Origin: Shigella phage SHBML-50-1
DNA length: 64,000 nt
Reading direction: 5' to 3' (one strand)
Sequence record: KX130864
The notes below the pieces were generated by a model. It was not told the origin of the DNA, did no database searches, and saw nothing but the letters and a program-made list of their open reading frames with translations. The translations under genes and the position numbers were made by a program. Below are positions 25,099 to 38,943 of this stretch, piece by piece; the stretch's first letter is position 1; every line of letters begins with the position of its first letter.

Positions 25099-27156
25099 CT
25101 ACATCTTGAACTTTTTAGACATTCCGTTGATGTTAACCAAAGAAGCCAAGATTTGAGAAACTTCGTTTTCCTCTTCTTTTGATTCTTCTACGAGGAATTG
25201 ATTAAACCCAGCCATTGGACGAACTTCGCCAGTTTCCATTAGATGATCGCCATCATATACCGATTCTTCTAATTGTTCAGAAGGAGGAACGATTGTGCCT
25301 TCGATTAGATACTTGTTATAAGCAGTTTCTTTCATAAAGTAAGTACTTACTTTATTAATCTTCAGTAAAATTCCACGTGGTAGAATAACTTCAGCTTCTG
25401 ATGGAAATCCTGATAAATGACCTGGAACGATAACTTTGATTCGCTCAGCTCCTTTAATTACCATACCCACGCTAGTTTCAGCATCTTCATTAGCATATGT
25501 AGAATGACTACCCATATGCATCAAATCTTCTGCATCAATGGAACCTTCTCCTTCACCAGAAAATACTGCGCCGGAATCATCTAGAGCCATATAGTTTTTA
25601 CCATGCTCACCGAAGATATTTGGTTTAAGCGATGTTGATACGAAGTTCTTGAAATAGAACATTTTATTTTCAATGTTATGACGCAAAGTTTTAAAGGTAA
25701 CTTCTTGCCCACGATAAAGAGTAGTTCCTGGAGGAAGAACTGAACCTTTAGCAAATGCAGAATCCAACGTCTCGATGTGTTTAATAGCTCGTTCCATATA
25801 TTCTTCACGGGTAGAATCAGGTTTACCTAAAAGGAACGAGTTCATTTCAACATATGAATCTGCACAATAATCTTCAATTACATCAGACTCAGCCTGAGTT
25901 AATCCTTTTGGAGTTACTTCAGTGCTTGCGTATTCATATGCCTGAGCGGCAGATTCATTAATCAATTTATAAATGCCATTCATGACAAATTGAATAATAG
26001 CTGTCTTTTCATCTGGTGTAGCTTTAGAACCTTTAACTAAATCATTGATAATTTTCTTAATAACATCAAAGCTATTAGAAATATTAATGTCAGCAAGATC
26101 GCTTAAAATTTTATCAGTTTTATAATCAAAGAATTCTTTATTCTTTAAATATTCTTGAGAACCTTGATATGTTATATCGCTCTGCAACTTGATAGATGGA
26201 TCACGTAAACGTGCATGGGCTAATGCAATATGATTTCGGAAACTTTCTAGTTCATAATCGTTAGATTTAAAACGAGAAGCACTTCTCATACCACCGATAG
26301 CTCCTTTGCTGAAGTTGGAACCAATCTGAATAACGCCAGAGTTCATCGGACCTTCTGCTTTATATACAGGAACTTTAGATTCAAACTCTTGATATTTCTT
26401 GGCAGCGAAGCTATCACCCTGAAGTGAAGCATCGACAGTAGAATATTGAGCTTGTGCTGCTAATCGACGACTAATTTTAGTTTTCTGAATAACAGCTTGA
26501 TCCGTGCGCTTATCATTTTCTAAGGCAATAGAAGCAGCAACAGCAACAGCTTTAGGAACAGCATTACCTGTTTTAACATCCACATAAACATCACCAACCT
26601 TTGATTCAACTTTTGTGAATAACTCAGTTGAAATAGGAGGTACACCTGGAATGTCTTCTAAATTGGCATTTTTACGGTAAACCATAATATATGCATACTT
26701 TTTATCATAATCCCAGATTTCCTTTAAAAGAACATATCGACCTGCTCCTTTAGTACGTACTAAACGGTCAGCAATAACTTGCATTTGACGAGCTGCGCCA
26801 TTTGTTTTACTTTTTAGTACGCGGAATAAGCATGCATCAATTTTATACTGTTTCATTGTTTGAAGAGCAGTATCAAAAACGGCATTAATGACACCAATTG
26901 GATTTCCACCTAAGTTTTTAAGTTTAACTAATGATAGTTTCTCATTGACACCTATCATTACGATATGCATCATTTTATCGCCTGGCTTAACGTTTTTATT
27001 TGTATCACCACCAGAGGTGTATGTACAAAATCTAAATCCAGGAAGCACACTTTCTTCGCCGGCTTGAATAGCAAAAATTTGAGGTATTTTATGCTTAGGA
27101 TTTAAGTTAACAACCGGCGCCGAAGCGCCGTCAAATAATTCTGTAATAAGTTCCAT
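25099..27156 (-). CDS. Alt-like mono-ADP-ribosyltransferase paralog (downstream copy)
   Basis: 685 aa; N-terminal ~230 aa and C-terminal ~200 aa similar to the adjacent Alt; R (YRGQ), S-T-S (FVSTSL) and E (SEAEVILPRG) ART motifs present; central region divergent. Confidence 0.85.
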   Translation of the reverse strand: MELITELFDGASAPVVNLNPKHKIPQIFAIQAGEESVLPGFRFCTYTSGGDTNKNVKPGDKMMHIVMIGVNEKLSLVKLKNLGGNPIGVINAVFDTALQTMKQYKIDACLFRVLKSKTNGAARQMQVIADRLVRTKGAGRYVLLKEIWDYDKKYAYIMVYRKNANLEDIPGVPPISTELFTKVESKVGDVYVDVKTGNAVPKAVAVAASIALENDKRTDQAVIQKTKISRRLAAQAQYSTVDASLQGDSFAAKKYQEFESKVPVYKAEGPMNSGVIQIGSNFSKGAIGGMRSASRFKSNDYELESFRNHIALAHARLRDPSIKLQSDITYQGSQEYLKNKEFFDYKTDKILSDLADINISNSFDVIKKIINDLVKGSKATPDEKTAIIQFVMNGIYKLINESAAQAYEYASTEVTPKGLTQAESDVIEDYCADSYVEMNSFLLGKPDSTREEYMERAIKHIETLDSAFAKGSVLPPGTTLYRGQEVTFKTLRHNIENKMFYFKNFVSTSLKPNIFGEHGKNYMALDDSGAVFSGEGEGSIDAEDLMHMGSHSTYANEDAETSVGMVIKGAERIKVIVPGHLSGFPSEAEVILPRGILLKINKVSTYFMKETAYNKYLIEGTIVPPSEQLEESVYDGDHLMETGEVRPMAGFNQFLVEESKEEENEVSQILASLVNINGMSKKFKM

Positions 27157-27159
27157 GAT

Positions 27160-29253
27160 TTATCCTTGAACGAACTTGTAAGGCATGTTTGTAATATCTA
27201 TGCAAGACGCAATAATTCCAAGAGATGATTCTACTTTTTGTTTAACATTTGATGAAACAAATGATGCAAAGTCAACTCTGTCTTCTATTTCAATATCACC
27301 TGTCATTGCAACTACTTCGCCGGTTTCCATTAGACGGTCACCGTCATAAATTACTGATTCGGTGAGTTCTTCCGTAGTCATAACTTCAGCTTGAATGAGT
27401 TTTGTATTATTAGATGTTGTTCCGTCATTATTAGAAGCATCAGTTATTTTATTAACTTTGACCATCAATCCGCGTGGTAGAATAACTTCAGCTTCTGTTG
27501 CTATTCCGAGACTTCCTGGATATACAACATTAACTTTATGAGCTCCATCAATTGCCCATCCTATTTGAACTTTAACGTATTCAGGATTTTCTTTATACGC
27601 TCTTATTTCGTTTGGATTAATAGTTATTCCTTCTTCATTTTTATCAACTGTCAATTCATTACGAGCTTCTGGTTCTAAAAGACCAATACCAGCATGCGTA
27701 ATTCCAAAACGTCCAAAAATGATAGGAGTTAAAGAAGTAGATACAAAATTTCTGAAATAGAATACTTTATTTTTAACTAATGCTTCGTATATAGGAGCAG
27801 TCATGCTTTGAGCACGATAAACTGTAATGCCTTCTGGTATACGGTCACCGTTTTCAAAAGCTGAATCTAAGTTATTTATAGCAGATTCAATTTCTTTTTC
27901 ACTCATTACATCATATCGTTCTGGATTGTAACGACCCAAAAGAAGATTATTGATGTCAGTATATCCTGATCCACAATACTCTCTAATGCCGCGCTTTTGT
28001 GATGGAGTATATTTAGAACCATCACGGGCAATAGTAATATCAATCATTGGACCTGCACCAATTCCAGAAAAACTATAAATCATTCTTTTGAGGAATTTAG
28101 TTTTTGCTGCGTTCCAGGAATTTTTAGTCATTTCTTCCCAGACTTCATCTGGCTGCCCTTTACGAGTTTTATTATGTTTATCAAGCCAATTATCTTTATA
28201 TTCTTCAAAGAGTTGATTAACAGCTGCTGCGTATTTCTCTAAACATTTTATTGAAGTAGTTGGTTCATTTTTAATCGCATTAAGAATTACATCTTTAATT
28301 TTTTCTGAAACTTCATCAACCTCACTTTTTGAAAAGAATTTATAGTCATAGTGAAGTTCATCTGCAGTTCCTTCGGCAATAATTTTTGCTGCCTTAGTTT
28401 TAGAAGCTAATGAATTAATTCCAAGCTTCATTTCTTCTGCTTCGGGAATTAAAGGAGCGGTAGCAGGTTTATTAAAATTAGCTGCTGTAGATTCATACTT
28501 CTGGAATAATTCACTTTCAAATCTAGAAGATTCCAATGATTGACTTTGCGCAATTGCTCTACGGGAAATTTTAACTTTAACGATTACAGCTTGGTCAGAA
28601 CGTTTATCATTTTCTTGTGCAATAGATGCTGCAATTGCCTCATTTTTAGTTACTTGAGCTCCAGTATCTTTATTGATATAAACATCACCAACCTTCGATT
28701 CAACTTTAGTAAAGAGCTCGGTACTAATTTCAGGAACTCCTGGAATGTCTTCTAATGATACGTTTTTGCGATGTATAAGAATATATGCATACTTTTTATC
28801 GTAATCCCAGAGTTCCTTAAGAAGGACGTATCTGCCACCTGAACGACTACGGATAAGTCTATCAGCAATAACTTGAATTTGTCGAGCTTGGCCAGCAGTT
28901 TTAGACTTAAGAATACGAAGCATACAAGCATCAATTTTATATTGACGCATTGTTTGCATTGCAACAGTAAAAACTGAATTGATATAATTAATTGGGCTTG
29001 GACCAAGACCTTTTAATTTAGCAATTGAACCTTTAGCAGTTAATGTAAAAGGAACAATATGCATCATTTTATCGCCCATCTTTAAATCACGATTAGTATC
29101 ACCTCCAGATGTATAGGTACATAAACGAAAGCCTGGTTGTTCAATTGCATCATCAACATGAACTGAAAAAATTTGTGGTATTTTCTTCTTTGGATTTAAG
29201 TTTGTAATCGGAAGAGTAGTATCTTCGTCAAATAATTCTGTAATGAGTTCCAT
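27160..29253 (-). CDS. alt: Alt ADP-ribosyltransferase (packaged RNA polymerase-modifying enzyme)
   Basis: 697 aa from the second ATG (MELITELFDEDTTLP...); R (YRAQ), STS (FVSTSL), E (TEAEVILPRG) motifs; late promoter box upstream on the minus strand. Confidence 0.9.
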   Translation of the reverse strand: MELITELFDEDTTLPITNLNPKKKIPQIFSVHVDDAIEQPGFRLCTYTSGGDTNRDLKMGDKMMHIVPFTLTAKGSIAKLKGLGPSPINYINSVFTVAMQTMRQYKIDACMLRILKSKTAGQARQIQVIADRLIRSRSGGRYVLLKELWDYDKKYAYILIHRKNVSLEDIPGVPEISTELFTKVESKVGDVYINKDTGAQVTKNEAIAASIAQENDKRSDQAVIVKVKISRRAIAQSQSLESSRFESELFQKYESTAANFNKPATAPLIPEAEEMKLGINSLASKTKAAKIIAEGTADELHYDYKFFSKSEVDEVSEKIKDVILNAIKNEPTTSIKCLEKYAAAVNQLFEEYKDNWLDKHNKTRKGQPDEVWEEMTKNSWNAAKTKFLKRMIYSFSGIGAGPMIDITIARDGSKYTPSQKRGIREYCGSGYTDINNLLLGRYNPERYDVMSEKEIESAINNLDSAFENGDRIPEGITVYRAQSMTAPIYEALVKNKVFYFRNFVSTSLTPIIFGRFGITHAGIGLLEPEARNELTVDKNEEGITINPNEIRAYKENPEYVKVQIGWAIDGAHKVNVVYPGSLGIATEAEVILPRGLMVKVNKITDASNNDGTTSNNTKLIQAEVMTTEELTESVIYDGDRLMETGEVVAMTGDIEIEDRVDFASFVSSNVKQKVESSLGIIASCIDITNMPYKFVQG

Positions 29254-29276
29254 CATATCCTCTCTAGTGTTTATTC

Positions 29277-29284
29277 TATTTATA
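29277..29284 (-). promoter_or_regulatory. late promoter box upstream of alt
   Basis: Minus strand reads TTTTATAAATAGAAT about 20 nt before the alt ATG. Confidence 0.55.
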
Positions 29285-29289
29285 AAATT

Positions 29290-29307
29290 AAAGGCCCGAA
29301 GGCCTTT
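29290..29307 (-). terminator. hairpin between the small ORF after ligase and the alt promoter
   Basis: AAAGGCC-CGAA-GGCCTTT. Confidence 0.5.
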
Positions 29308-29494
29308 AATAATCTATTGGTAAGAGAGTACGATATATTTCAAACTTTGGACCTTTTTCATAGGCATCAAATGTTTCTGTGAATTTATTATAAGCATATG
29401 CATCTACAAATTCGAGAATGACTTGTGATACAGAAGTAGAAACATCTCCACCTTCTTTTTGAGCAATGACAATTGTTTCTAAGTAAGCTTTCAT
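29306..29494 (-). CDS. small hypothetical protein between ligase and alt
   Basis: 62 aa ORF whose start overlaps the gene 30 stop. Confidence 0.55.
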   Translation of the reverse strand: MKAYLETIVIAQKEGGDVSTSVSQVILEFVDAYAYNKFTETFDAYEKGPKFEIYRTLLPIDY

Positions 29495-30954
29495 AGACCA
29501 GTTACCTCATGAAAATCGCCAAATACATCCTCGAATGTATTAGCTTTAGTTTTATCTTCACGTAAACGAATCGCAATCGGAAGAAATAATTTAACGTAAT
29601 CGGTGCGGCCATCAGATTTTAACCAACCATTGCATTCGCACTCTAGAATTTTTCCAATATAATAATTTTGGTTTTCCATAATGCGAGTACGGTCAAGTTC
29701 ATGCGATTTTACACCGGCTTTATCTTTTAAGCCTGAACCAGCATTTACTTTAATTTTTCCACACTCTGATTCAAGAATAAATCCACCCGCTTTAGTAGGG
29801 TCTTTACGGTGAGGATAAATTCCTACAATTTTTAAATCAACATCAATTACTTCTTTAAATTTATAAAGATTTTTTGAACGAGCATTTTCCCATAATCCAT
29901 CGATATTTTTGAGAATAATACCTTCAAGACCTTGGTCAATATACTTTTTATAAATTACCTTAGCTTCATCTAGGTTATTTACTACCTGGTTTTCAATTAA
30001 AATTACTTTATCATATCCTGATGTCATTTGTTCTAGTTTAGAAAAACGTACATCATATTTTAAACGAAACGCCGGAAGACCGTATATTTCTACCAACGGG
30101 ACATAATCCCAAACCTGAAACTTCATGCATTGAGCTTCTTTTTCTGAAATAGTTCCCTTTAAAGATTTATTGGCGATGCCATTAGATGCAGTACGTGATT
30201 CAGCTACTTCGGCGAATTCTTTAGCTTTACTAATTTCAGGATAAGCATCAAAAAGAAAATCTAGGCCTTCTGGCTCTTTTTTAACTTGCTCATGGTATAC
30301 CAATTCGCCATCAATTAACACACCTTCTGGATGAATCTGGCGGGCTTCAGCAGTCATTTTGATTAACTCTTCCTTAAGAAGATCTAATCCTAGATATTCA
30401 TTACCCGCTCGTGATAAAAGACGAACATCATCTAATTCATCGCCTCGGACTTCAGCAAAACACCGGGCTCCATCTGCTTTTAACTGCGCAAAGGCTGGAA
30501 ACTTGATATTCTTACTAATGCCCTTTTCATCATAAGAACTTGCCAGCATTTGAGGTTGTTCAGGAATTAAACCTGGCCAAACTTTATTTGCAATAGATAC
30601 TGAAGCACCGCATTCAAGGTCTCGCATCATCACTCGACGCAAAACTTCAACATCATCTTTTTTACCATCAGTGATATATCCAGTTAATTCCTCAATTGCA
30701 GCATTTCCAGTCAATTTCCGAGTAGCTAACGTGAATTCAATGAAATCAAGCATATCGGTAATGGTCAGCATTCCAAAACTCTGGGTAGCAATACCAGGTT
30801 TAGGCCATTTCTTGATATAATACTGTAACCCACGAGAATAAGTCAGACGATATACTCGTTTAAGCAATTCATTATCTTTATTCTTTTCAAGAATTGCTTG
30901 CTTCTGCTTAGTTGAACCAATAGATGCTATTTCGTTTAGAATTTTAAGAATCAT
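29491..30954 (-). CDS. 30: ATP-dependent DNA ligase gp30
   Basis: 487 aa; KADGAR adenylation motif; T4 DNA ligase-like sequence and size. Confidence 0.95.
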   Translation of the reverse strand: MILKILNEIASIGSTKQKQAILEKNKDNELLKRVYRLTYSRGLQYYIKKWPKPGIATQSFGMLTITDMLDFIEFTLATRKLTGNAAIEELTGYITDGKKDDVEVLRRVMMRDLECGASVSIANKVWPGLIPEQPQMLASSYDEKGISKNIKFPAFAQLKADGARCFAEVRGDELDDVRLLSRAGNEYLGLDLLKEELIKMTAEARQIHPEGVLIDGELVYHEQVKKEPEGLDFLFDAYPEISKAKEFAEVAESRTASNGIANKSLKGTISEKEAQCMKFQVWDYVPLVEIYGLPAFRLKYDVRFSKLEQMTSGYDKVILIENQVVNNLDEAKVIYKKYIDQGLEGIILKNIDGLWENARSKNLYKFKEVIDVDLKIVGIYPHRKDPTKAGGFILESECGKIKVNAGSGLKDKAGVKSHELDRTRIMENQNYYIGKILECECNGWLKSDGRTDYVKLFLPIAIRLREDKTKANTFEDVFGDFHEVTGL

Positions 30955-31220
30955 TGTTCATCCTTTAGAGTTTGGTTTACAGCTCTATTATAAATCAATT
31001 CATCATTAAGCTCAGTCAAAGACATGTGGTACGTGGTTCTAACTTTATTTCCTTGCATCCAGTGCTTGACGTAAATGAAACCTTGCTCTACACATTTTTT
31101 AAAAATTCGTTCGTCTTTTTGAGCTCGAAATTCTGGATTGCATCTAAAAAATTGATTTACGTGACCGTAATCACGTGTAGTATTACCTTCATTTTCATAA
31201 ATAGTGTGAACGACAAACAT
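30951..31220 (-). CDS. hypothetical protein (T4 30.1-like position)
   Basis: 89 aa ORF overlapping its neighbours by 1-4 nt. Confidence 0.6.
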   Translation of the reverse strand: MFVVHTIYENEGNTTRDYGHVNQFFRCNPEFRAQKDERIFKKCVEQGFIYVKHWMQGNKVRTTYHMSLTELNDELIYNRAVNQTLKDEQ

Positions 31221-32056
31221 TAGAATGCTCCTTGGAAAATATTATCACCACCAGTAGGTCTATTATACAAATACTCTATGCCACCAGGTTTAATATAGTT
31301 CCATGTCTGAAACGGATGCGTCTGATATGGATGATATGGATTATAAGGATTAAATCCAGGAGTTCTCCAGGTAGTATTCCAACGAAAAGAATCGTTTTTA
31401 ATCATCTTCTCGATTGCATCTTTTATAGCTTTTTCACTATCAAAACTTTCTTTATTTTCCTTCGATGGAAAAAGCTTATTCTCTACATCATTCCATGTAT
31501 AAACTCGCTGTGCAGTTTTTGGAATACTGTCACGCTCCCCTCGAGCCATCCAATAAACAGGAACATTTAATATTTCACTCGCGTGATCGCAGTGGTGAGC
31601 GAGATCGTCAATATAACAAATTACGTTATATTTCTCTTTTGCCTTTTTGAACAGCTCTTCTTTTGAAGAATCATGACTACACATCAGTACTTCTGAGAAG
31701 GCACCAGGAAAAAGAGCATTCAAATTAAATTGACGATTCAGCAGAGCGTCAATAGAATCACCCAATGCTGTAACAGCTACAAAATTATAATCTTCTTTTA
31801 ATTTGTTAATTACACACAGGGCATCTTTATATGGAGACAAGTAACGAATAAAATCTGAACGATTATATTTTTCAATTAACTTGACACCAAGTTCTTCATC
31901 ACAATTAAAGAGTTTACCAGGAGAAATAAATTTCTCATCTTGGATCATTTTTAAAATATGTTCTAACGGAAGATTATATTTCTGAGCAAAATAAGGAAGG
32001 CCTGATTGCCAGCTTAAACATACTCCATCAATATCAGTTAAAATAGTAGGCTTCAT
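31220..32056 (-). CDS. putative HAD-superfamily hydrolase with Pro/Tyr-rich C-terminal tail (T4 30.2-like position)
   Basis: 278 aa; N-terminal ILTDIDGV (DxDG motif I); C-terminal NPYNPYHPYQTHPFQ low-complexity segment. Confidence 0.6.
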   Translation of the reverse strand: MKPTILTDIDGVCLSWQSGLPYFAQKYNLPLEHILKMIQDEKFISPGKLFNCDEELGVKLIEKYNRSDFIRYLSPYKDALCVINKLKEDYNFVAVTALGDSIDALLNRQFNLNALFPGAFSEVLMCSHDSSKEELFKKAKEKYNVICYIDDLAHHCDHASEILNVPVYWMARGERDSIPKTAQRVYTWNDVENKLFPSKENKESFDSEKAIKDAIEKMIKNDSFRWNTTWRTPGFNPYNPYHPYQTHPFQTWNYIKPGGIEYLYNRPTGGDNIFQGAF

Positions 32057-32517
32057 AGAGAGTCTCTTAATAGGTTTAACACATCAATAAATTCAGCTTC
32101 GGTTAGTATTGTATCATCTTTTGTTAGACCACTAGCCATGCTGTGCTTCAAAACTTTTCCTTTCGAGGCTTGTAATGCATCACGAAAGCCCTTGTTTTGA
32201 ATCGCTGCTTCAAAATATGCATTTGTGTATAATTCTTTCCACGCCGGGGAGTATCTTGAAAACGGAACTCCAAGCCAGAAGAGGGTCCCACGGTCCTGAG
32301 CTCTAGCATAAGACCTTCCAGCTTGTTGAGCGGCAAGCCCGGATAACCCAAATATACGACGTTGTTGTTCAACGTTTTTCACCTTGCATCCTTGGAGGAA
32401 TCCTTCAAGACCTCCAAATTGAATACCATCCATAACGAAAGGCCATTGGGCGAAATTACTTAATGCACATGATGGCCACCTAAAATTACTTCTAATCTCT
32501 AACTCAGACATTTTCAA
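32053..32517 (-). CDS. putative NADAR/YbiA-like (DUF1768) protein (T4 30.3-like position)
   Basis: 154 aa; ALSNFAQWPF..DGIQFGGLEGFLQGCK resembles the NADAR signature (LSNF...EHYFQA-type). Confidence 0.55.
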   Translation of the reverse strand: MKMSELEIRSNFRWPSCALSNFAQWPFVMDGIQFGGLEGFLQGCKVKNVEQQRRIFGLSGLAAQQAGRSYARAQDRGTLFWLGVPFSRYSPAWKELYTNAYFEAAIQNKGFRDALQASKGKVLKHSMASGLTKDDTILTEAEFIDVLNLLRDSL

Positions 32518-32710
32518 TGCTTATAATTTCAACATCAGCCCAATGACCATAGCAAGGAAGACGAAATTCAACTGGCCAGTTAGGGTCCTTTTCTAATATA
32601 ATAGACTCAACTCGTGGTTCTTCATGTTCATCAGTATATGGATTTTTATCTGTTACTTTATATGTGACCTTAATGTACTGAATTCCAAAAATCTTATTAA
32701 TTATATTCAT
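32504..32710 (-). CDS. hypothetical small protein
   Basis: 68 aa ORF in operon context. Confidence 0.5.
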   Translation of the reverse strand: MNIINKIFGIQYIKVTYKVTDKNPYTDEHEEPRVESIILEKDPNWPVEFRLPCYGHWADVEIISIENV

Positions 32711-32904
32711 ACTAATTCCTTTAATCCGTAAATAGGAGATAATTCATCACCCATGCGAAGGTCTTCATTTCCATCTACCCAGGAAACAATATAAGCCTCT
32801 TTTATTTGAATACCACTCCATTTAAATGGAGGTAGAACCTTAGAAATTAATCCAGGTATACCAACTCCCTTTAATTCAACAGTTTGGCCTAAAAAGAATT
32901 TCAT
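32707..32904 (-). CDS. hypothetical small protein
   Basis: 65 aa ORF in operon context. Confidence 0.5.
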   Translation of the reverse strand: MKFFLGQTVELKGVGIPGLISKVLPPFKWSGIQIKEAYIVSWVDGNEDLRMGDELSPIYGLKELV

Positions 32905-33191
32905 TAGAACCTCATCTGAAAACCGTGCGATTTAACATTACCGCCACCAATATCAGAAATGTTAATTTCACGCGCAATTGAAGGGTCAATGTCAATTTCA
33001 CGATTAAGTTTAGTGATAGCTAAAGTATCGCGCCCATTTACAGTACGGAACTCTAAAGGACATACTACATTAACGTAGTTTTTAATCGATTCACTGGTAG
33101 GTTGCAAATGAACAGGAAGGTCTTTAGGCGCCTTTGAGAAAACCACTTCACAGAAATTTTTGCGGGTATCAAAATAAGTAGTCATAAACAT
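32904..33191 (-). CDS. hypothetical protein
   Basis: 95 aa ORF in operon context. Confidence 0.55.
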   Translation of the reverse strand: MFMTTYFDTRKNFCEVVFSKAPKDLPVHLQPTSESIKNYVNVVCPLEFRTVNGRDTLAITKLNREIDIDPSIAREINISDIGGGNVKSHGFQMRF

Positions 33192-33206
33192 AGTATTTTC
33201 CTCAGT

Positions 33207-33224
33207 AAGGGGCCGAAGCCCCTC
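33207..33224 (-). terminator. intra-operon hairpin in the 30.x cluster
   Basis: AGGGGC-CGAA-GCCCCT. Confidence 0.45.
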
Positions 33225-33232
33225 ATTTTATT

Positions 33233-33610
33233 TTAAATATCAAATTCGTTAAGAACTACATCAAAGATTGCTTCAAGATGCTCAGGTTTAGCTCTGTTAC
33301 TCAGAATATGACGAATCCAAGTTTTAACCAGAAGCTTGCGATTAACGCCATTCCAGCAAGGATGAGTCCCTAAATCGCGTTGACGAAAATCATCATCCAA
33401 AGCGATTTTGAAGTTGGAACCTTCCATTGTGATTGAAACCGTGATACCGTTTTCAAATCGCATATAAACGTAATTAGGAGTCATATACTGTTCAATTTCG
33501 CATACTGAACCATTTTGATGTTTCCAGAGGCAAATAGTATCAATAGAACCTGCAATACCATTAGAAACATATTTACGTTCAAAGTTAATGTAGTTCATTT
33601 TATTCTCCAA
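33233..33610 (-). CDS. hypothetical protein
   Basis: 125 aa ORF; start may be the internal MNYINF methionine. Confidence 0.55.
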   Translation of the reverse strand: MENKMNYINFERKYVSNGIAGSIDTICLWKHQNGSVCEIEQYMTPNYVYMRFENGITVSITMEGSNFKIALDDDFRQRDLGTHPCWNGVNRKLLVKTWIRHILSNRAKPEHLEAIFDVVLNEFDI

Positions 33611-33665
33611 GATGTTTAATTGCGGTACAGGTATATAATATCATATCCTGTACCAAAGTAAACAA

Positions 33666-33998
33666 TTATTTTACTACTTTCCAATGCTGCATGTCAAGTT
33701 TACCAACTTTTTTCATCTTCTCAATTAAGCGTTCGGCACGTTGGCGAGCTGTAACATAATACCATTCACCTAATTCATTTTGTTCAATTTTTCCAACGAT
33801 TACTGTATTCAATTCATAAATCCAACCAGTAAAGAAATTATGAACTTGAATTGTAAAGGTGAAATCTGTTCCCATACCTTCTGTTGTTTCTACTTCAATA
33901 ATATCACCTTCAACTGCCATTAAGAACCACATAGTTTCATCATATTTACCATTGAAGCATTTAGTTTTAACTGTAGCGTTCAGATTAATCGTTTTCAT
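33666..33998 (-). CDS. hypothetical protein
   Basis: 110 aa ORF preceded (minus strand) by a GTTTAC...TAGTAT early-promoter-like element. Confidence 0.55.
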   Translation of the reverse strand: MKTINLNATVKTKCFNGKYDETMWFLMAVEGDIIEVETTEGMGTDFTFTIQVHNFFTGWIYELNTVIVGKIEQNELGEWYYVTARQRAERLIEKMKKVGKLDMQHWKVVK

Positions 33999-34025
33999 TT
34001 TATTCTCCTTTGTTTGTGTAAGATA

Positions 34026-34055
34026 ATACTATCACAAAGGAACCATACTGTAAAC
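34026..34055 (-). promoter_or_regulatory. candidate early promoter for the 30.x to ligase operon
   Basis: Minus strand GTTTAC - 18 nt - TAGTAT upstream of ORF 33666..33998; resembles the T4 early -35/-10 pattern. Confidence 0.35.
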
Positions 34056-34084
34056 AACTTTATGCAATCTTTGGAAAATAAAAA

Positions 34085-34104
34085 AGGACTCCCGAAGGAG
34101 TCCT
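34085..34104 (-). terminator. hairpin downstream of the small basic-protein ORF
   Basis: AGGACTCC-CGAA-GGAGTCCT preceded by an A-run. Confidence 0.5.
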
Positions 34105-34108
34105 CAAC

Positions 34109-34327
34109 TTATGCTTTCTGCTTACCAAAACGAGAAGCATCATCTCGAAGAACCGCACGTGCTCGGCGCATGATCTTCTCAACAGTTTGATTGATACGAG
34201 AGTTCGACCCACGCTTGTAGCCAGCGCGTTTAGAATCACCAACTTTCTTTTCAACTGCTTTCTTTGCTTTAGCTTGTTTTGCCATTATAAATTCTCTTTT
34301 AAATGAAAATGCAGGACTTATTGGCAT
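34109..34327 (-). CDS. small Lys/Arg-rich basic protein (possible nucleic-acid binding)
   Basis: ORF with likely true start at MAKQAKAKKAVEKK (about 34285, AAGAG RBS); hairpin terminator downstream. Confidence 0.5.
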   Translation of the reverse strand: MPISPAFSFKREFIMAKQAKAKKAVEKKVGDSKRAGYKRGSNSRINQTVEKIMRRARAVLRDDASRFGKQKA

Positions 34328-34530
34328 TGCCTGCGCAAGCCCTCAAGGGGAACATAGGTTTTTGGATATTTAACGACCAGGATAACCATAAACCCGTCAT
34401 CATTCACATTCAAGAGGTACACCGTAAAACTGCCGGGGTCTTAAAACTATAATGATTCGCAAATCATTAATCAGACAGTTCGACGGCTCCTCGATTTTAG
34501 CTCACACTAAGGCAGTGAATCTCCAATAAA

Positions 34531-34779
34531 TTACTTCAGTGTTACCACAAAGTGACGAACTGCTTTTCGTGCAGCAGAAGCCAGAGGCTTAGCATATTTA
34601 AGTTCATCTTTTTCCTGAAGCTCAGCAGCTAATGCAGTTTGAGCAGGATTCAGATGTTTGAAATAACGCAGGATTTCAAGAGCTTCGGCTTCAACATCAA
34701 TAGATGCGCCATAGTTTTCGTGACCATTATTCCATGCGTTTCGTTGCAGTTCAAGAGCGTGTTGTAATTGTTTAATCAT
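34531..34779 (-). CDS. rIII: RIII lysis inhibition accessory protein
   Basis: 82 aa MIKQLQHALELQRNAWNNGHENYG...; T4 rIII-like sequence and size. Confidence 0.9.
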   Translation of the reverse strand: MIKQLQHALELQRNAWNNGHENYGASIDVEAEALEILRYFKHLNPAQTALAAELQEKDELKYAKPLASAARKAVRHFVVTLK

Positions 34780-34926
34780 TTAAAAATTCTCGTTAGAGAT
34801 TAAAACTCGGTAGTCACGTTCTTCTGAATTTCATCTTCTTTCGACAGATCTCTCAGTTGTAGACTACCACATAGAATTGTTCGGTTAACTTATTATTCCG
34901 ACACCCAATTCATATTATTATTTATA

Positions 34927-35262
34927 TCACTTATAAAGACACGGAATAGCTTTATAGTGACAAGTAACGAATTTTTGTTTAATTTCTTTTGGCTGCTTAA
35001 GACCCAGAGCTACAAAAGGATGCGGAACATTTCGAATTTGACCAACTGGAAGAGAAGTCAAATCACCAACTTCGCAGAAACCTTCAGGAACATCAGGACC
35101 GACAGAGTGAACTACACATAGTTCAGGAACTTCACCTTGAACACGTTTACCGATAATAAGTCCTGATTCTGTAACTTCTTCATCACCGGCTTGTGCAGGT
35201 TCAGAAACTAAAATAACATATTCACCGACAGCACGAATTGGTAGCTGTTGTACTTCAGACAT
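34927..35262 (-). CDS. 31: gp31 co-chaperonin (GroES analogue) for capsid protein folding
   Basis: 111 aa; T4 gp31-like sequence and size. Confidence 0.92.

Positions 35263-37553: not shown

Positions 37554-38943
<1,390 letters not shown>

What the first reader, a model, noticed from the sequence alone, without database searches (positions are those of the whole stretch)
31220..32517. HAD-like hydrolase and NADAR-like protein encoded next to DNA ligase
ORF 31220-32056 begins with a DxDG motif (ILTDIDGV) typical of HAD phosphatases or nucleotidases and ends in an unusual Pro/Tyr-rich tail. The adjacent ORF 32053-32517 contains an LSNF...DG...GG.EGFLQ pattern reminiscent of NADAR (YbiA-like) domains, which process ADP-ribose-related substrates. 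Together with two Alt-type ADP-ribosyltransferases about 3 kb away this suggests an ADP-ribose writer/eraser toolkit; a NADAR-like enzyme could also counteract ADP-ribosylating host defence toxins.
Basis: inference. Interest (0 to 1): 0.5.

Follow-up and report, generated by a model that had tools for sequence, protein, structure and literature searches.

The report
T4 AdfN NADAR plus HAD neighbour
These are the T4 phage genes 30.3 and 30.2: 30.3 is the already characterised AdfN enzyme that strips ADP-ribose off phage DNA to defeat the bacterial DarTG1 defence, and 30.2 is an untested HAD-type phosphatase beside it.

Summary
The window is a Tequatrovirus (T4-like) genome. Both ORFs are real and lie on the minus strand.

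**Gene 30.3 (32053-32511).** It is 151/152 identical to T4 gp30.3. That protein is AdfN, a NADAR ADP-ribosylglycohydrolase shown in 2024-2025 to remove guanine-linked ADP-ribose from DNA and to be necessary and sufficient against DarTG1.

**Gene 30.2 (31220-32056).** It is 271/278 identical to T4 gp30.2.
- No Pfam or NCBIfam model hits it.
- All four HAD motifs are conserved: D8, D10, K132, D150 and D151 are invariant and T96 is nearly so.
- Its relatives most often match Pfam NT5C, the 5'(3')-deoxyribonucleotidase family.
- Its function is untested.

**What published T4 transposon data add.** Gene 30.2 is non-essential and is not needed for DarTG1 resistance. Neither is alt. The proposed Alt writer/eraser pairing is not supported.

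**Possibly new.** I found no published mention of this. gp30.3-type NADARs are fused to NT5C-type HAD domains in at least 120 protein clusters, some also carrying KptA. They sit in RNA-repair or ADP-ribose-processing clusters. This hints that T4 30.3 and 30.2 are a split version of one module.

The parts
32053..32511 (-). Gene 30.3 = adfN, a NADAR-fold ADP-ribosylglycohydrolase of 152 aa. Catalytic Glu36 is at 32404-32406 and Lys43 at 32383-32385. The phage-clade His123 is at 32143-32145.
   Evidence: PF08010 hit at E 2e-70. It is 151/152 identical to T4 gp30.3. The AF2 model has pLDDT 89 and its top Foldseek hits are YbiA 2b3w, GlNADAR 8bat and PnNADAR 8bau. Function is taken from PMC11825919 and PMC11125620.
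31220..32056 (-). Gene 30.2, a predicted HAD-superfamily phosphatase of 278 aa, NT5C-like with a C1 cap, followed by a disordered tail.
31457..32056 (-). HAD catalytic core with cap, residues 1-200. Motif I is D8/D10 (32027-32035). Motif II is T96 (31769-31771). Motif III is K132 (31661-31663). Motif IV is D150/D151 (31604-31609). The cap helices span residues 16-86.
   Evidence: hhalign against the NT5C domain of the fusion proteins aligns all four motifs.
31223..31396 (-). Pro/Tyr/Asn/Gly-rich disordered C-terminal tail of gp30.2, residues 221-278. It carries the conserved short motif GIEYLYNRPT at about 31253-31282.
   Evidence: pLDDT is below 50. The motif [GS]xEY[LWY]..[QR]PT is found in 16 of 100 homologue clusters whose HAD cores are about 50% identical.
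32053..32056 (-). ATGA overlap: the stop of 30.3 and the start of 30.2 share 4 nt, an arrangement typical of translational coupling.
   Evidence: The same 4-nt overlap occurs in 15 of 78 related loci.
30951..31220 (-). Gene 30.1 (DUF3045, 89 aa). Its start overlaps the stop of 30.2 (TAATG).
   Evidence: PF11243 at E 3e-63.
29491..30954 (-). Gene 30, the ATP-dependent DNA ligase, last gene of the tightly packed 30.7-to-30 run.
32504..32710 (-). Gene 30.4 (68 aa), directly upstream of adfN and overlapping its start.
   Evidence: phrog_2042; T4 annotation.
32148..32372 (-). ORF 30.3', an out-of-frame internal ORF inside adfN that is annotated in T4.

Best explanation
The region holds genes 30.3 and 30.2 of a T4-like phage. 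They sit in a tightly packed minus-strand run (30.7 to 30) that ends with DNA ligase.

Gene 30.3 is AdfN. It is a minimal NADAR-fold N-glycosidase. It uses Glu36 and Lys43, and the phage-clade His123 sits where other NADARs have Glu or Asp. It hydrolyses the bond between ADP-ribose and guanine N2. During infection of a DarTG1 host it removes the ADP-ribose that the DarT1 toxin puts on phage DNA, so replication can proceed. This is shown experimentally for the 151/152-identical T4 protein.

Gene 30.2, whose start overlaps the stop of 30.3, most likely encodes a Mg2+-dependent HAD phosphomonoesterase of the 5'(3')-deoxyribonucleotidase-like (NT5C-like) branch. The proposed roles are Asp8 as nucleophile, Asp10 as general acid/base, Thr96 and Lys132 holding the phosphate, and Asp150/151 holding Mg2+. 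Its helical C1 cap implies a small substrate, probably nucleotide-like. This is inferred and was not assayed.

Gene 30.2 is non-essential and is not required for DarTG1 counter-defence. Its disordered tail with a conserved GIEYLxxQPT motif probably docks an unknown partner (inference).
For: Identity:
- The stretch is 98% identical at DNA level to Tequatrovirus genomes.
- Gene order is the same as in T4.
- The proteins are 151/152 and 271/278 identical to the T4 proteins.

NADAR (gene 30.3):
- PF08010 at 235 bits.
- A profile search of PDB puts YbiA top.
- The AF2 model has pLDDT 89. Its only matches with Foldseek probability 1.00 are the three solved NADARs; only YbiA 2b3w is below E 1e-3.
- E36, K43 and H123 are present and the C-terminal helix is intact.
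- Published experiments on T4 AdfN. It hydrolyses G-ADPr but not T-ADPr DNA in vitro. It is necessary and sufficient against DarTG1. E36A and K43A weaken it, and an RB69-type truncation weakens it.
- In Tn-seq, 30.3 has log2FC -7.25 with DarTG1.
- It also acts on G-ADPr RNA.

HAD (gene 30.2):
- D8, D10, K132, D150 and D151 are invariant, and T96 nearly so, in 38 homologues.
- The model has pLDDT above 90 over most of residues 1-190.
- The only HAD hit in sequence or profile searches of PDB is cytosolic 5'(3')-deoxyribonucleotidase.
- 36 of 140 distant relatives hit Pfam NT5C, more than any other family.
- Some GenBank and JGI records call homologues a HAD hydrolase, a phosphatase or a 5'(3')-deoxyribonucleotidase.

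Dispensability of 30.2:
- 72 of 72 TA sites are hit.
- log2FC is -0.12 with DarTG1.
Against: - gp30.2 itself matches no Pfam or NCBIfam HAD model.
- The sequence link to NT5C is weak: PDB profile E 0.025, and hhalign to the fused NT5C domain gives 87.6% probability.
- No activity data exist for gp30.2.
- AdfN fails to rescue DarT1 toxicity in uninfected cells and works fully only in T-even infections. Part of its mechanism is therefore still unknown.
Confidence: 0.88

Rival explanations
1. NADAR-HAD module. gp30.2 is the phosphatase half of a conserved two-part module with AdfN. Where host or competitor transferases ADP-ribosylate guanine in nucleic acids or nucleotides, the NADAR removes the ADP-ribose. 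The NT5C-like HAD then dephosphorylates an ADP-ribosylated nucleotide or a breakdown product, such as ADPr-dGMP or GMP, AMP or ribose-5-phosphate after Nudix cleavage, or ADPr-1''-phosphate. The role is auxiliary and is not needed against DarTG1 in laboratory conditions.
For: - gp30.3-type NADAR is fused, in the order NADAR then HAD, to an NT5C domain in L101 and L102. The same architecture holds for all 120 best clusters of 1831 hits. Their motif I is intact: DMDxV in 116 of 117.
- Some fusions also carry KptA/Tpt1.
- The fusions sit beside an ADP-ribosylglycohydrolase, RNA ligase, an HD-kinase and further NADARs.
- T4-like phages keep 30.3 then 30.2 in the same order. In 37 of 78 loci 30.3 lies within about 1.2 kb upstream on the same strand, and 15 of those share the 4-nt overlap.
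- Both genes have nearly the same distribution in phage genomes, 1438 and 1509 records.
- Pierisin-type transferases are reported to modify guanine mononucleotides too.
Against: - Insertions in 30.2 have no effect with DarTG1.
- 41 of 78 loci with 30.2 have no 30.3 within 6 kb. Most distant 30.3 loci lack 30.2 nearby.
- In the 167,266-bp genome of Serratia phage PS2 the two genes are about 60 kb apart.
- The fused HAD is a different NT5C branch from gp30.2: the A1 profile does not find it at E 1e-3 and BLAST gives E 0.04.
- Co-occurrence in Straboviridae can be simple vertical inheritance.
Confidence: 0.3
2. Independent nucleotide-pool enzyme. gp30.2 is a 5'(3')-deoxyribonucleotidase-type enzyme that trims a particular (deoxy)nucleoside monophosphate in the T4 precursor pool. 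Its position next to adfN is only inherited gene order.
For: - It is closest to cdN/mdN by sequence and fold.
- NT5C is the commonest Pfam match among its relatives.
- The locus lies in a region rich in nucleotide and DNA-metabolism genes, including ligase, dCMP deaminase and PNK.
- 30.2 often occurs without a neighbouring 30.3.
- The family is large and mostly stand-alone proteins of about 200 aa: 1309 representatives at E<=1e-3.
Against: - T4 recycles host dNMPs, so a general dNMP phosphatase would be wasteful (established T4 biology, my own knowledge).
- The gene is fully dispensable in rich medium.
- This reading explains neither the conserved tail motif nor the NADAR-NT5C fusions.
Confidence: 0.35
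3. Alt writer/eraser toolkit. AdfN, perhaps with gp30.2, reverses or tunes the ADP-ribosylation that the phage's own Alt-type transferases place on host proteins.
For: - Two Alt paralogues lie 2-7 kb away on the same strand.
Against: - Every activity demonstrated for NADARs in the papers read here is on base-linked ADP-ribose in DNA or RNA. [quoted passage not shown]
- The deletion phenotype is fully explained by DarTG1.
- alt insertions are neutral with DarTG1.
- The gene order is generic T4 synteny.
Confidence: 0.05
4. gp30.2 is the unknown T-even factor that AdfN needs for full activity outside T-even infection.
For: - The AdfN paper infers such a factor.
- The 30.2 start overlaps the adfN stop.
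- Fused NADAR-HAD proteins exist.
Against: - In the T4 transposon library challenged with DarTG1, 30.2 insertions are not depleted: log2FC -0.12, p 0.61.
- In the same sheet 30.3 is at -7.25.
Confidence: 0.04
5. gp30.2 is a polynucleotide-end phosphatase, like the HAD domain of T4 PNK, working with the adjacent DNA ligase in nucleic-acid repair.
For: - There is a weak match to a PHROG polynucleotide kinase family, E 0.005.
- The gene lies two genes from DNA ligase.
- The fused relatives sit in RNA-repair clusters with RNA ligase and kinase.
Against: - The model has a helical C1 cap over residues 16-86. In HAD enzymes such a cap generally restricts access to small molecules (established HAD classification, my own knowledge).
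- T4 already encodes PseT, at 37743-38648.
- The best structural matches are mononucleotidases, not PNK-type phosphatases.
Confidence: 0.08

Closest known systems
T4 AdfN (gp30.3), anti-DarT factor NADAR (Johannesman et al., Nat Commun 2025, PMC11825919; Cihlova et al., Toxins 2024, PMC11125620)
   Same: It is 151/152 identical, with the same length, the same catalytic E36 and K43, the same H123 and the same C-terminal helix. The genomic position between 30.4 and 30.2 is the same.
   Different: One conservative substitution, Met124 here against Ile in T4. The host phage is a different Tequatrovirus, closest to phiD1, Kha5h and the RB3 group.
DarG1, the NADAR antitoxin of DarTG1 (Geobacter lovleyi NADAR, PDB 8bat)
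   Same: Same fold (Foldseek probability 1.0, TM 0.61). Same reaction, removal of ADP-ribose from guanine in DNA.
   Different: The phage protein is an orphan with no DarT next to it. It lacks the N-terminal extension. It has His where DarG1 has Asp. It does not rescue DarT1 toxicity in uninfected cells.
E. coli YbiA (PDB 2b3w), the housekeeping NADAR
   Same: It is the best structural match (E 2.4e-4, TM 0.67) and the best PDB profile match over the SNF...DG...E..Q segment.
   Different: Only 18% identical. YbiA has Glu in the last strand. It is linked to riboflavin-intermediate N-glycosidase activity and sits in a LexA-controlled operon.
Cytosolic and mitochondrial 5'(3')-deoxyribonucleotidases cdN and mdN (Pfam NT5C, PF06941; PDB 2jao, 2i7d, 1q92) and the Staphylococcus deoxyribonucleotidase-like protein 3bwv
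   Same: HAD core plus small helical cap. The motif I context DxDGVxxxW/F is shared. They are the only sequence-level PDB hits and give the best TM-scores. Relatives of gp30.2 hit PF06941.
   Different: 14-20% identity. gp30.2 itself is below every Pfam threshold. It has a longer cap insert and a roughly 80-residue C-terminal extension, a helix followed by a disordered tail, that these enzymes lack.
NADAR(PF08010)-NT5C(PF06941) fusion proteins, some with KptA (PF01885), from gut metagenome and IMG/VR contigs (P0123-P0242; L101, L102, L106-L108)
   Same: The same two domain types occur in the same order as T4 30.3 then 30.2. The NADAR half is 34-36% identical to AdfN and keeps the phage-clade His in the sequence.
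   Different: They are one polypeptide. The HAD half is a canonical NT5C that the gp30.2 profile does not detect. They are embedded in clusters with RNA ligase, a kinase and an ADP-ribosylglycohydrolase rather than next to DNA ligase.

Membership tests
NADAR superfamily, phage gp30.3/AdfN clade (Pfam PF08010) | Significant match to the family profile | tested here: met
   PF08010 at E 2.3e-70 and 235 bits against a cut-off of 36, covering profile positions 1-138 of 138.
NADAR superfamily, phage gp30.3/AdfN clade (Pfam PF08010) | YbiA/NADAR alpha+beta fold | tested here: met
   The AF2 model has pLDDT 89. Its top three Foldseek PDB hits are the three NADAR structures 2b3w, 8bat and 8bau, with TM 0.53-0.67. 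The next hits have probability at or below 0.04.
NADAR superfamily, phage gp30.3/AdfN clade (Pfam PF08010) | Catalytic Glu and Lys (E36 and K43 in T4 numbering) that contact ADP-ribose | tested here: met
   Both are present and invariant in 10 homologues, where they appear as E38 and K45 in the TTG-start numbering. Their role is from mutagenesis in PMC11825919.
NADAR superfamily, phage gp30.3/AdfN clade (Pfam PF08010) | His in the last strand where YbiA has Glu and DarG1 has Asp (the phage-clade signature) | tested here: met
   H123, in LKHS, is invariant in the alignment. The signature is described in PMC11125620 and PMC12945103.
NADAR superfamily, phage gp30.3/AdfN clade (Pfam PF08010) | Intact C-terminal helix (the RB69 frameshift that removes it lowers activity) | tested here: met
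   The protein is full length at 152 aa, and its C-terminus is identical to T4.
NADAR superfamily, phage gp30.3/AdfN clade (Pfam PF08010) | Match to the general NADAR model PF08719 | tested here: not met
   No PF08719 hit at E<=1 for the window protein. A fused relative reaches only E 0.001, below the cut-off. PF08010 is a separate Pfam model of the same superfamily, so this does not argue against membership.
NADAR superfamily, phage gp30.3/AdfN clade (Pfam PF08010) | Hydrolysis of guanine-N2-ADP-ribose on DNA, and protection from DarTG1 | not testable with these tools
   Shown for the 151/152-identical T4 protein in the literature.
DarTG1 toxin-antitoxin system (DarG1 antitoxin) | Encoded next to a DarT1 ADP-ribosyltransferase toxin | tested here: not met
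   The neighbours are 30.4 and 30.2, followed by 30.1 and ligase. The published description is 'orphan antitoxin'.
DarTG1 toxin-antitoxin system (DarG1 antitoxin) | N-terminal extension on the NADAR core | tested here: not met
   The 152-aa protein is the core only. The model begins with the first core strand at residue 5. The literature says the same.
HAD (haloacid dehalogenase-like) phosphatase superfamily | Motif I hhhhDxDx[T/V] at the end of strand 1 | tested here: met
   The sequence is TILTDIDGV. D8, D10 and G11 are invariant in 38 homologues. Strand 4-8 is in the model.
HAD (haloacid dehalogenase-like) phosphatase superfamily | Motif II Ser/Thr, motif III Lys, motif IV acidic pair | tested here: met
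   T96 is conserved in at least 90% of sequences. K132, D150 and D151 are invariant. All four motifs align to the NT5C domain motifs by hhalign.
HAD (haloacid dehalogenase-like) phosphatase superfamily | Rossmann-like HAD fold with cap | tested here: met
HAD (haloacid dehalogenase-like) phosphatase superfamily | Significant hit to a curated HAD profile | tested here: not met
   No Pfam or NCBIfam HAD model at E<=1 for gp30.2 itself. The test is met only transitively. Of 140 relatives, 36 hit NT5C, 14 hit Hydrolase and 11 hit HAD_2.
HAD (haloacid dehalogenase-like) phosphatase superfamily | Mg2+-dependent phosphoryl transfer through an aspartyl-phosphate intermediate | not testable with these tools
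   No assay of gp30.2 was found in the literature searches.
NT5C family, 5'(3')-deoxyribonucleotidases (PF06941) | Match to PF06941 above the gathering score | tested here: not met
   No hit for gp30.2.
NT5C family, 5'(3')-deoxyribonucleotidases (PF06941) | Closer to NT5C members than to other HAD families | tested here: inconclusive
NT5C family, 5'(3')-deoxyribonucleotidases (PF06941) | dNMP phosphatase activity | not testable with these tools
   No data available.

The most novel reading that the evidence does not exclude
T4 30.3 and 30.2 are the split form of an old two-domain NADAR-HAD(NT5C) module. In many gut-metagenome phage or bacterial contigs it is a single polypeptide, sometimes also carrying the KptA RNA 2'-phosphotransferase.

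On this reading gp30.2 would be the phosphatase that completes the clean-up of ADP-ribosylated guanine nucleotides or of ADP-ribose breakdown products. That would give T4 gene 30.2 its first function. It would also explain what appears to be the most abundant architecture of the gp30.3 family in metagenomes.

I found no mention of this fusion or of the pairing in the papers I could read. The 2012 paper that defined NADAR could not be read.
Probability: 0.3. Interest if true: 0.45.

Novelty: already known. Interest (0 to 1): 0.22.

Why it matters
The NADAR gene is a published phage counter-defence. AdfN is an enzymatic orphan antitoxin that erases DarT1's ADP-ribose marks from phage DNA. Finding it here only says that this phage should be resistant to DarTG1.

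The residual value lies in gene 30.2. About 100 T4 genes still have no function, and 30.2 is one of them. The evidence here makes it a catalytically intact HAD phosphatase of the deoxyribonucleotidase-like kind.

The recurrent fusion of gp30.3-type NADARs to NT5C domains gives a concrete hypothesis that can be tested at low cost: a phosphatase step coupled to removal of ADP-ribose from bases. The published transposon data rule out the most tempting idea, that 30.2 is the missing T-even factor AdfN depends on.

Tried and rejected
- **Direct profile searches of gp30.2.** Pfam and NCBIfam gave only noise, thiamine pyrophosphokinase at E 0.09 and 0.015.
- **Single-sequence PDB searches.** Both proteins were near the noise level.
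- **gp30.2 as AdfN's missing T-even cofactor.** Rejected on the DarTG1 Tn-seq sheet: 30.2 log2FC -0.12 against 30.3 at -7.25.
- **Obligate gene linkage.** Rejected. 41 of 78 loci with 30.2 lack 30.3 within 6 kb. Most distant 30.3 loci lack 30.2.
- **Tail motif elsewhere in the window.** A six-frame search for GIEY..QPT found nothing outside gp30.2.
- **Tail presence against adjacency to 30.3.** There is no relationship. Tailed and tail-less versions occur both with and without a neighbouring 30.3.
- **Context of distant gp30.2 relatives.** P0290 and P0121 were uninformative. The 139-aa ORF upstream of the P0121 HAD is not a NADAR.
- **Promoter and terminator scan of 29200-35000.** Counts were no better than in shuffled sequence.
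- **Literature.** A search for any study of gene 30.2 found nothing. The paper that defined NADAR (de Souza and Aravind 2012) is not held, so I cannot exclude that it already lists a NADAR-HAD architecture.
Full report
**What is there**

The window is part of a Tequatrovirus (T4-like) genome. The stretch 30900-32800 is 98% identical to Yersinia phage phiD1, phage Kha5h, the RB3 group and hundreds of other T-even phages. The gene order matches the T4 reference record: alt, alt.1, 30 (DNA ligase), 30.1, 30.2, 30.3, 30.4 and onward to rIII, 31, cd and pseT.

Both ORFs in the finding are on the minus strand.

- ORF 31220-32056 is gene 30.2. It is 278 aa and 271/278 identical to T4 gp30.2.
- ORF 32053-32517 is gene 30.3. 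The TTG at 32517 was picked mechanically. The start annotated in T4 is the ATG at 32511, which gives 152 aa and 151/152 identity to T4 gp30.3.

The genes are tightly packed. The ATG of 30.3 lies 5 nt upstream of the 30.4 stop codon, so the two genes overlap by 8 nt. The stop of 30.3 and the start of 30.2 share ATGA. The stop of 30.2 and the start of 30.1 share TAATG.

**Gene 30.3 is AdfN, a known NADAR**

The sequence and structure evidence is consistent.

- The protein hits Pfam PF08010 (Phage_30_3) at 235 bits.
- A profile of ten homologues puts E. coli YbiA first in the PDB, aligned over the SNF...DG...E..Q segment.
- An AlphaFold model has pLDDT 89. The three solved NADARs (YbiA 2b3w, Geobacter DarG1-type NADAR 8bat and Phytophthora NADAR 8bau) are the only Foldseek hits with probability 1.00. 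Only 2b3w is below E 1e-3.

The literature already covers this protein fully.

- Cihlova et al. 2024 call phage NADARs 'gp30.3 proteins' and note a His where other NADARs have Glu or Asp. They show that the phage enzyme hydrolyses guanine-linked but not thymine-linked ADP-ribose on DNA. They also show that it does not rescue DarT1 toxicity in cells.
- Johannesman et al. 2025 renamed 30.3 adfN. They showed that it is necessary and sufficient for DarTG1 resistance of T-even phages. E36A and K43A weaken it. The RB69 frameshift that removes the last helix inactivates it. The purified protein removes ADP-ribose from DarT1-modified DNA.
- A T4 transposon screen confirms this. Insertions in 30.3 drop by log2FC -7.25 on a DarTG1 host.
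- The T4 enzyme also acts on guanosine-ADP-ribose in RNA.

The window protein keeps E36, K43, H123 and the full C-terminus. It should therefore behave like the T4 protein. It is an orphan: no DarT gene is next to it, and it lacks the N-terminal extension of DarG1.

**Gene 30.2 is a HAD-fold enzyme, and the subfamily is probably NT5C-like**

No Pfam or NCBIfam model matches gp30.2. PHROGs lists it as a family of unknown function. The HAD assignment rests on the following evidence.

- In 38 homologues down to 33% identity, the invariant or nearly invariant residues include the four HAD motifs: D8-x-D10-G11, T96, K132 and D150-D151.
- The AlphaFold model is confident over residues 1-200. It shows the alternating strand-helix core with a helical cap inserted after motif I, at residues 16-86.
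- Foldseek finds 114 HAD structures at E<1e-3. The best TM-scores and rmsd values are for the cytosolic and mitochondrial 5'(3')-deoxyribonucleotidases and the Staphylococcus deoxyribonucleotidase-like protein 3bwv.
- At sequence level, the only HAD found in the PDB is mouse cytosolic deoxyribonucleotidase. It is found both by the single sequence and by the profile, but weakly, at E 0.9 and 0.025.
- An exhaustive profile search finds 1309 representatives at E<=1e-3. Most are stand-alone proteins of 190-225 aa. Of 140 of them, 36 match Pfam NT5C, 14 match the generic Hydrolase model and 11 match HAD_2.

I therefore file gp30.2 as a HAD-superfamily member with all catalytic motifs. It is probably on the deoxyribonucleotidase-like branch, but membership in NT5C is not demonstrated.

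The cap argues for a small substrate. That follows from the general classification of HAD enzymes and is my inference, not a test.

**The tail of gp30.2**

Residues 221-278 are predicted disordered and are enriched in Pro, Tyr, Asn, Gly and Thr.

- Tails vary greatly among homologues, and 46 of 100 homologue clusters are under 250 aa and so lack a long tail.
- Sixteen of 100 homologue clusters, whose HAD cores are only about 50% identical, end with the same short motif, G-[IV]-E-Y-L-x-x-Q-P-T.
- This looks like a docking peptide for an unknown partner.
- The motif does not occur elsewhere in the window.

**Do the two genes work together, or with Alt?**

Three lines bear on this.

*Synteny.* In 78 viral contigs with a 30.2 homologue, 37 have a 30.3 homologue within about 1.2 kb upstream on the same strand. 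Of these, 19 overlap or abut and 15 share the exact 4-nt overlap. The other 41 have none within 6 kb. Distant 30.3 homologues mostly lack a nearby 30.2. In the GenBank phage collection the two proteins have almost identical distributions, 1438 and 1509 records with the same host spectrum. They can nevertheless be about 60 kb apart, as in the 167,266-bp genome of Serratia phage PS2. The co-occurrence is compatible with simple vertical inheritance in T4-like phages.

*Genetics.* In the published T4 transposon library, 30.2 is fully dispensable, with 72 of 72 TA sites hit. On a DarTG1 host its insertions are not depleted (log2FC -0.12, p 0.61). Insertions in alt are also neutral at -0.01. I identified this sheet as the DarTG1 comparison from its position after the RnlAB sheet and from the -7.25 value for 30.3. 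This rules out gp30.2 as the 'unknown T-even factor' that AdfN is thought to need. It also removes any support for an Alt-AdfN writer/eraser pair in this phenotype.

*Gene fusions.* While checking distant 30.3 loci I found that the NADAR is the N-terminal half of a longer protein in L101 and L102. The C-terminal half matches Pfam NT5C, at E 7e-10 and 8e-15.

- A database search with the L102 protein returned 1831 clusters. All 120 best clusters carry PF08010 plus PF06941. About 20 of them, at 503-508 aa, also carry PF01885 (KptA/Tpt1).
- Motif I is intact (DMDxV) in 116 of 117 fusion sequences in which it was located, and the NADAR half of the two fusions read in full keeps the phage-type His.
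- These genes sit next to an ADP-ribosylglycohydrolase, RNA ligase, an HD-plus-kinase protein, a methyltransferase, a WYL regulator and further NADAR genes. In L102 the neighbours also include a phage lysozyme, a dual-specificity phosphatase, a PP2C phosphatase and a RelA/SpoT homologue.
- The domain order, NADAR then HAD, is the same as T4 30.3 then 30.2.
- hhalign relates the gp30.2 core to the fused NT5C domain over its full length, with all four motifs aligned (probability 87.6%, E 3.5e-6). The gp30.2 profile alone does not detect the fused domain, so the two are different HAD branches.

This is suggestive evidence of the Rosetta-stone type (two proteins found fused elsewhere) for a functional link between gp30.3-type NADARs and deoxyribonucleotidase-like phosphatases. 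I found no mention of it in the papers I could read. The 2012 paper that defined NADAR could not be read.

**Most likely mechanism**

Shown, by identity to the characterised T4 protein: AdfN hydrolyses the N-glycosidic bond between ADP-ribose and guanine N2 on phage DNA modified by DarT1. This restores replication.

Inferred: gp30.2 is an active aspartyl-phosphate phosphatase acting on a small, probably nucleotide-like, phosphomonoester.

Whether it serves the same pathway as AdfN or is an independent nucleotide-pool enzyme is open. In the shared-pathway reading it might dephosphorylate ADP-ribosylated guanine nucleotides, which pierisin-type transferases are reported to make, or products of ADP-ribose breakdown. 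I put the shared pathway at about 0.30 and the independent enzyme at about 0.35. A polynucleotide-end phosphatase role and the Alt eraser idea are below 0.1 each, and the AdfN-cofactor idea is about 0.04.

**Verdict**

- The NADAR and anti-toxin reading is right but already published for an almost identical protein.
- The HAD reading is right at fold and motif level. It already appears as an annotation in some database records.
- The Alt toolkit idea is not supported.
- Novelty is 'already known'.
- The one lead worth following is the NADAR-NT5C fusion, as a clue to the function of T4 gene 30.2.

Noticed in passing
L101:5914-6969, L102:3478-4440, L106:6001-6987, L107/L108:6001-7512: gp30.3-type NADAR (PF08010) is fused to an NT5C-type HAD domain (PF06941), and in some proteins also to KptA/Tpt1 (PF01885). 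All 120 best clusters of 1831 hits have this architecture. The neighbours are an ADP-ribosylglycohydrolase, RNA ligase, an HD-kinase, a methyltransferase, a WYL regulator and more NADARs.
   Followed up: partly
window 25099-27156 and 27160-29256 (minus strand): There are two full-length Alt-type ADP-ribosyltransferase genes in tandem, 41% identical to each other. The second is the alt orthologue, 70% identical to T4 Alt with a near-identical N-terminal third. The first occupies the place where T4 has only the remnants alt.-1 and alt.-2, which T4's annotation calls an old partial duplication of alt.
   Followed up: partly
window 31253-31282 (gp30.2 residues about 259-268): A short motif, G-I-E-Y-L-x-x-[QR]-P-T, is conserved at the end of otherwise very variable, disordered tails. 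It occurs in 16 of 100 gp30.2 homologue clusters from phages of different genera. Its partner is unknown, and it is not found elsewhere in the window.
   Followed up: partly
window 32504-32710 (gene 30.4) and 32707-32904 (gene 30.5): In the published T4 Tn-seq sheet for DarTG1, insertions in 30.4 are also depleted (log2FC -1.79, adjusted p 0.014). Insertions in 30.5 show -3.0, which is not significant. The likeliest cause is a polar effect on the overlapping adfN start. A contribution of 30.4 to AdfN function is not excluded.
   Followed up: no
window 32148-32372 (minus strand): An out-of-frame ORF of 74 aa lies inside adfN. It corresponds to T4's annotated 30.3', described as internal translation in a different frame.
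   Followed up: no
Both genes are kept but are unlinked.
   Followed up: no
window 29306-29494 (minus strand): The small gene alt.1, between alt and the DNA ligase gene, matches Pfam PF24647 'Phage blade protein' at E 2e-29.
   Followed up: no
L099:4736-5308: In one distant phage contig, a weak gp30.2-profile hit (68 bits, with no Pfam match) lies about 700 bp upstream of the NADAR. This is the reverse of the T4 order.
   Followed up: no
window 37743-38648 (minus strand): pseT, the polynucleotide kinase/3'-phosphatase, lies 5 kb upstream of adfN. It carries its own HAD motif [11 protein letters not shown]. The window therefore encodes two HAD-type phosphatases in the same early-gene block.
   Followed up: no
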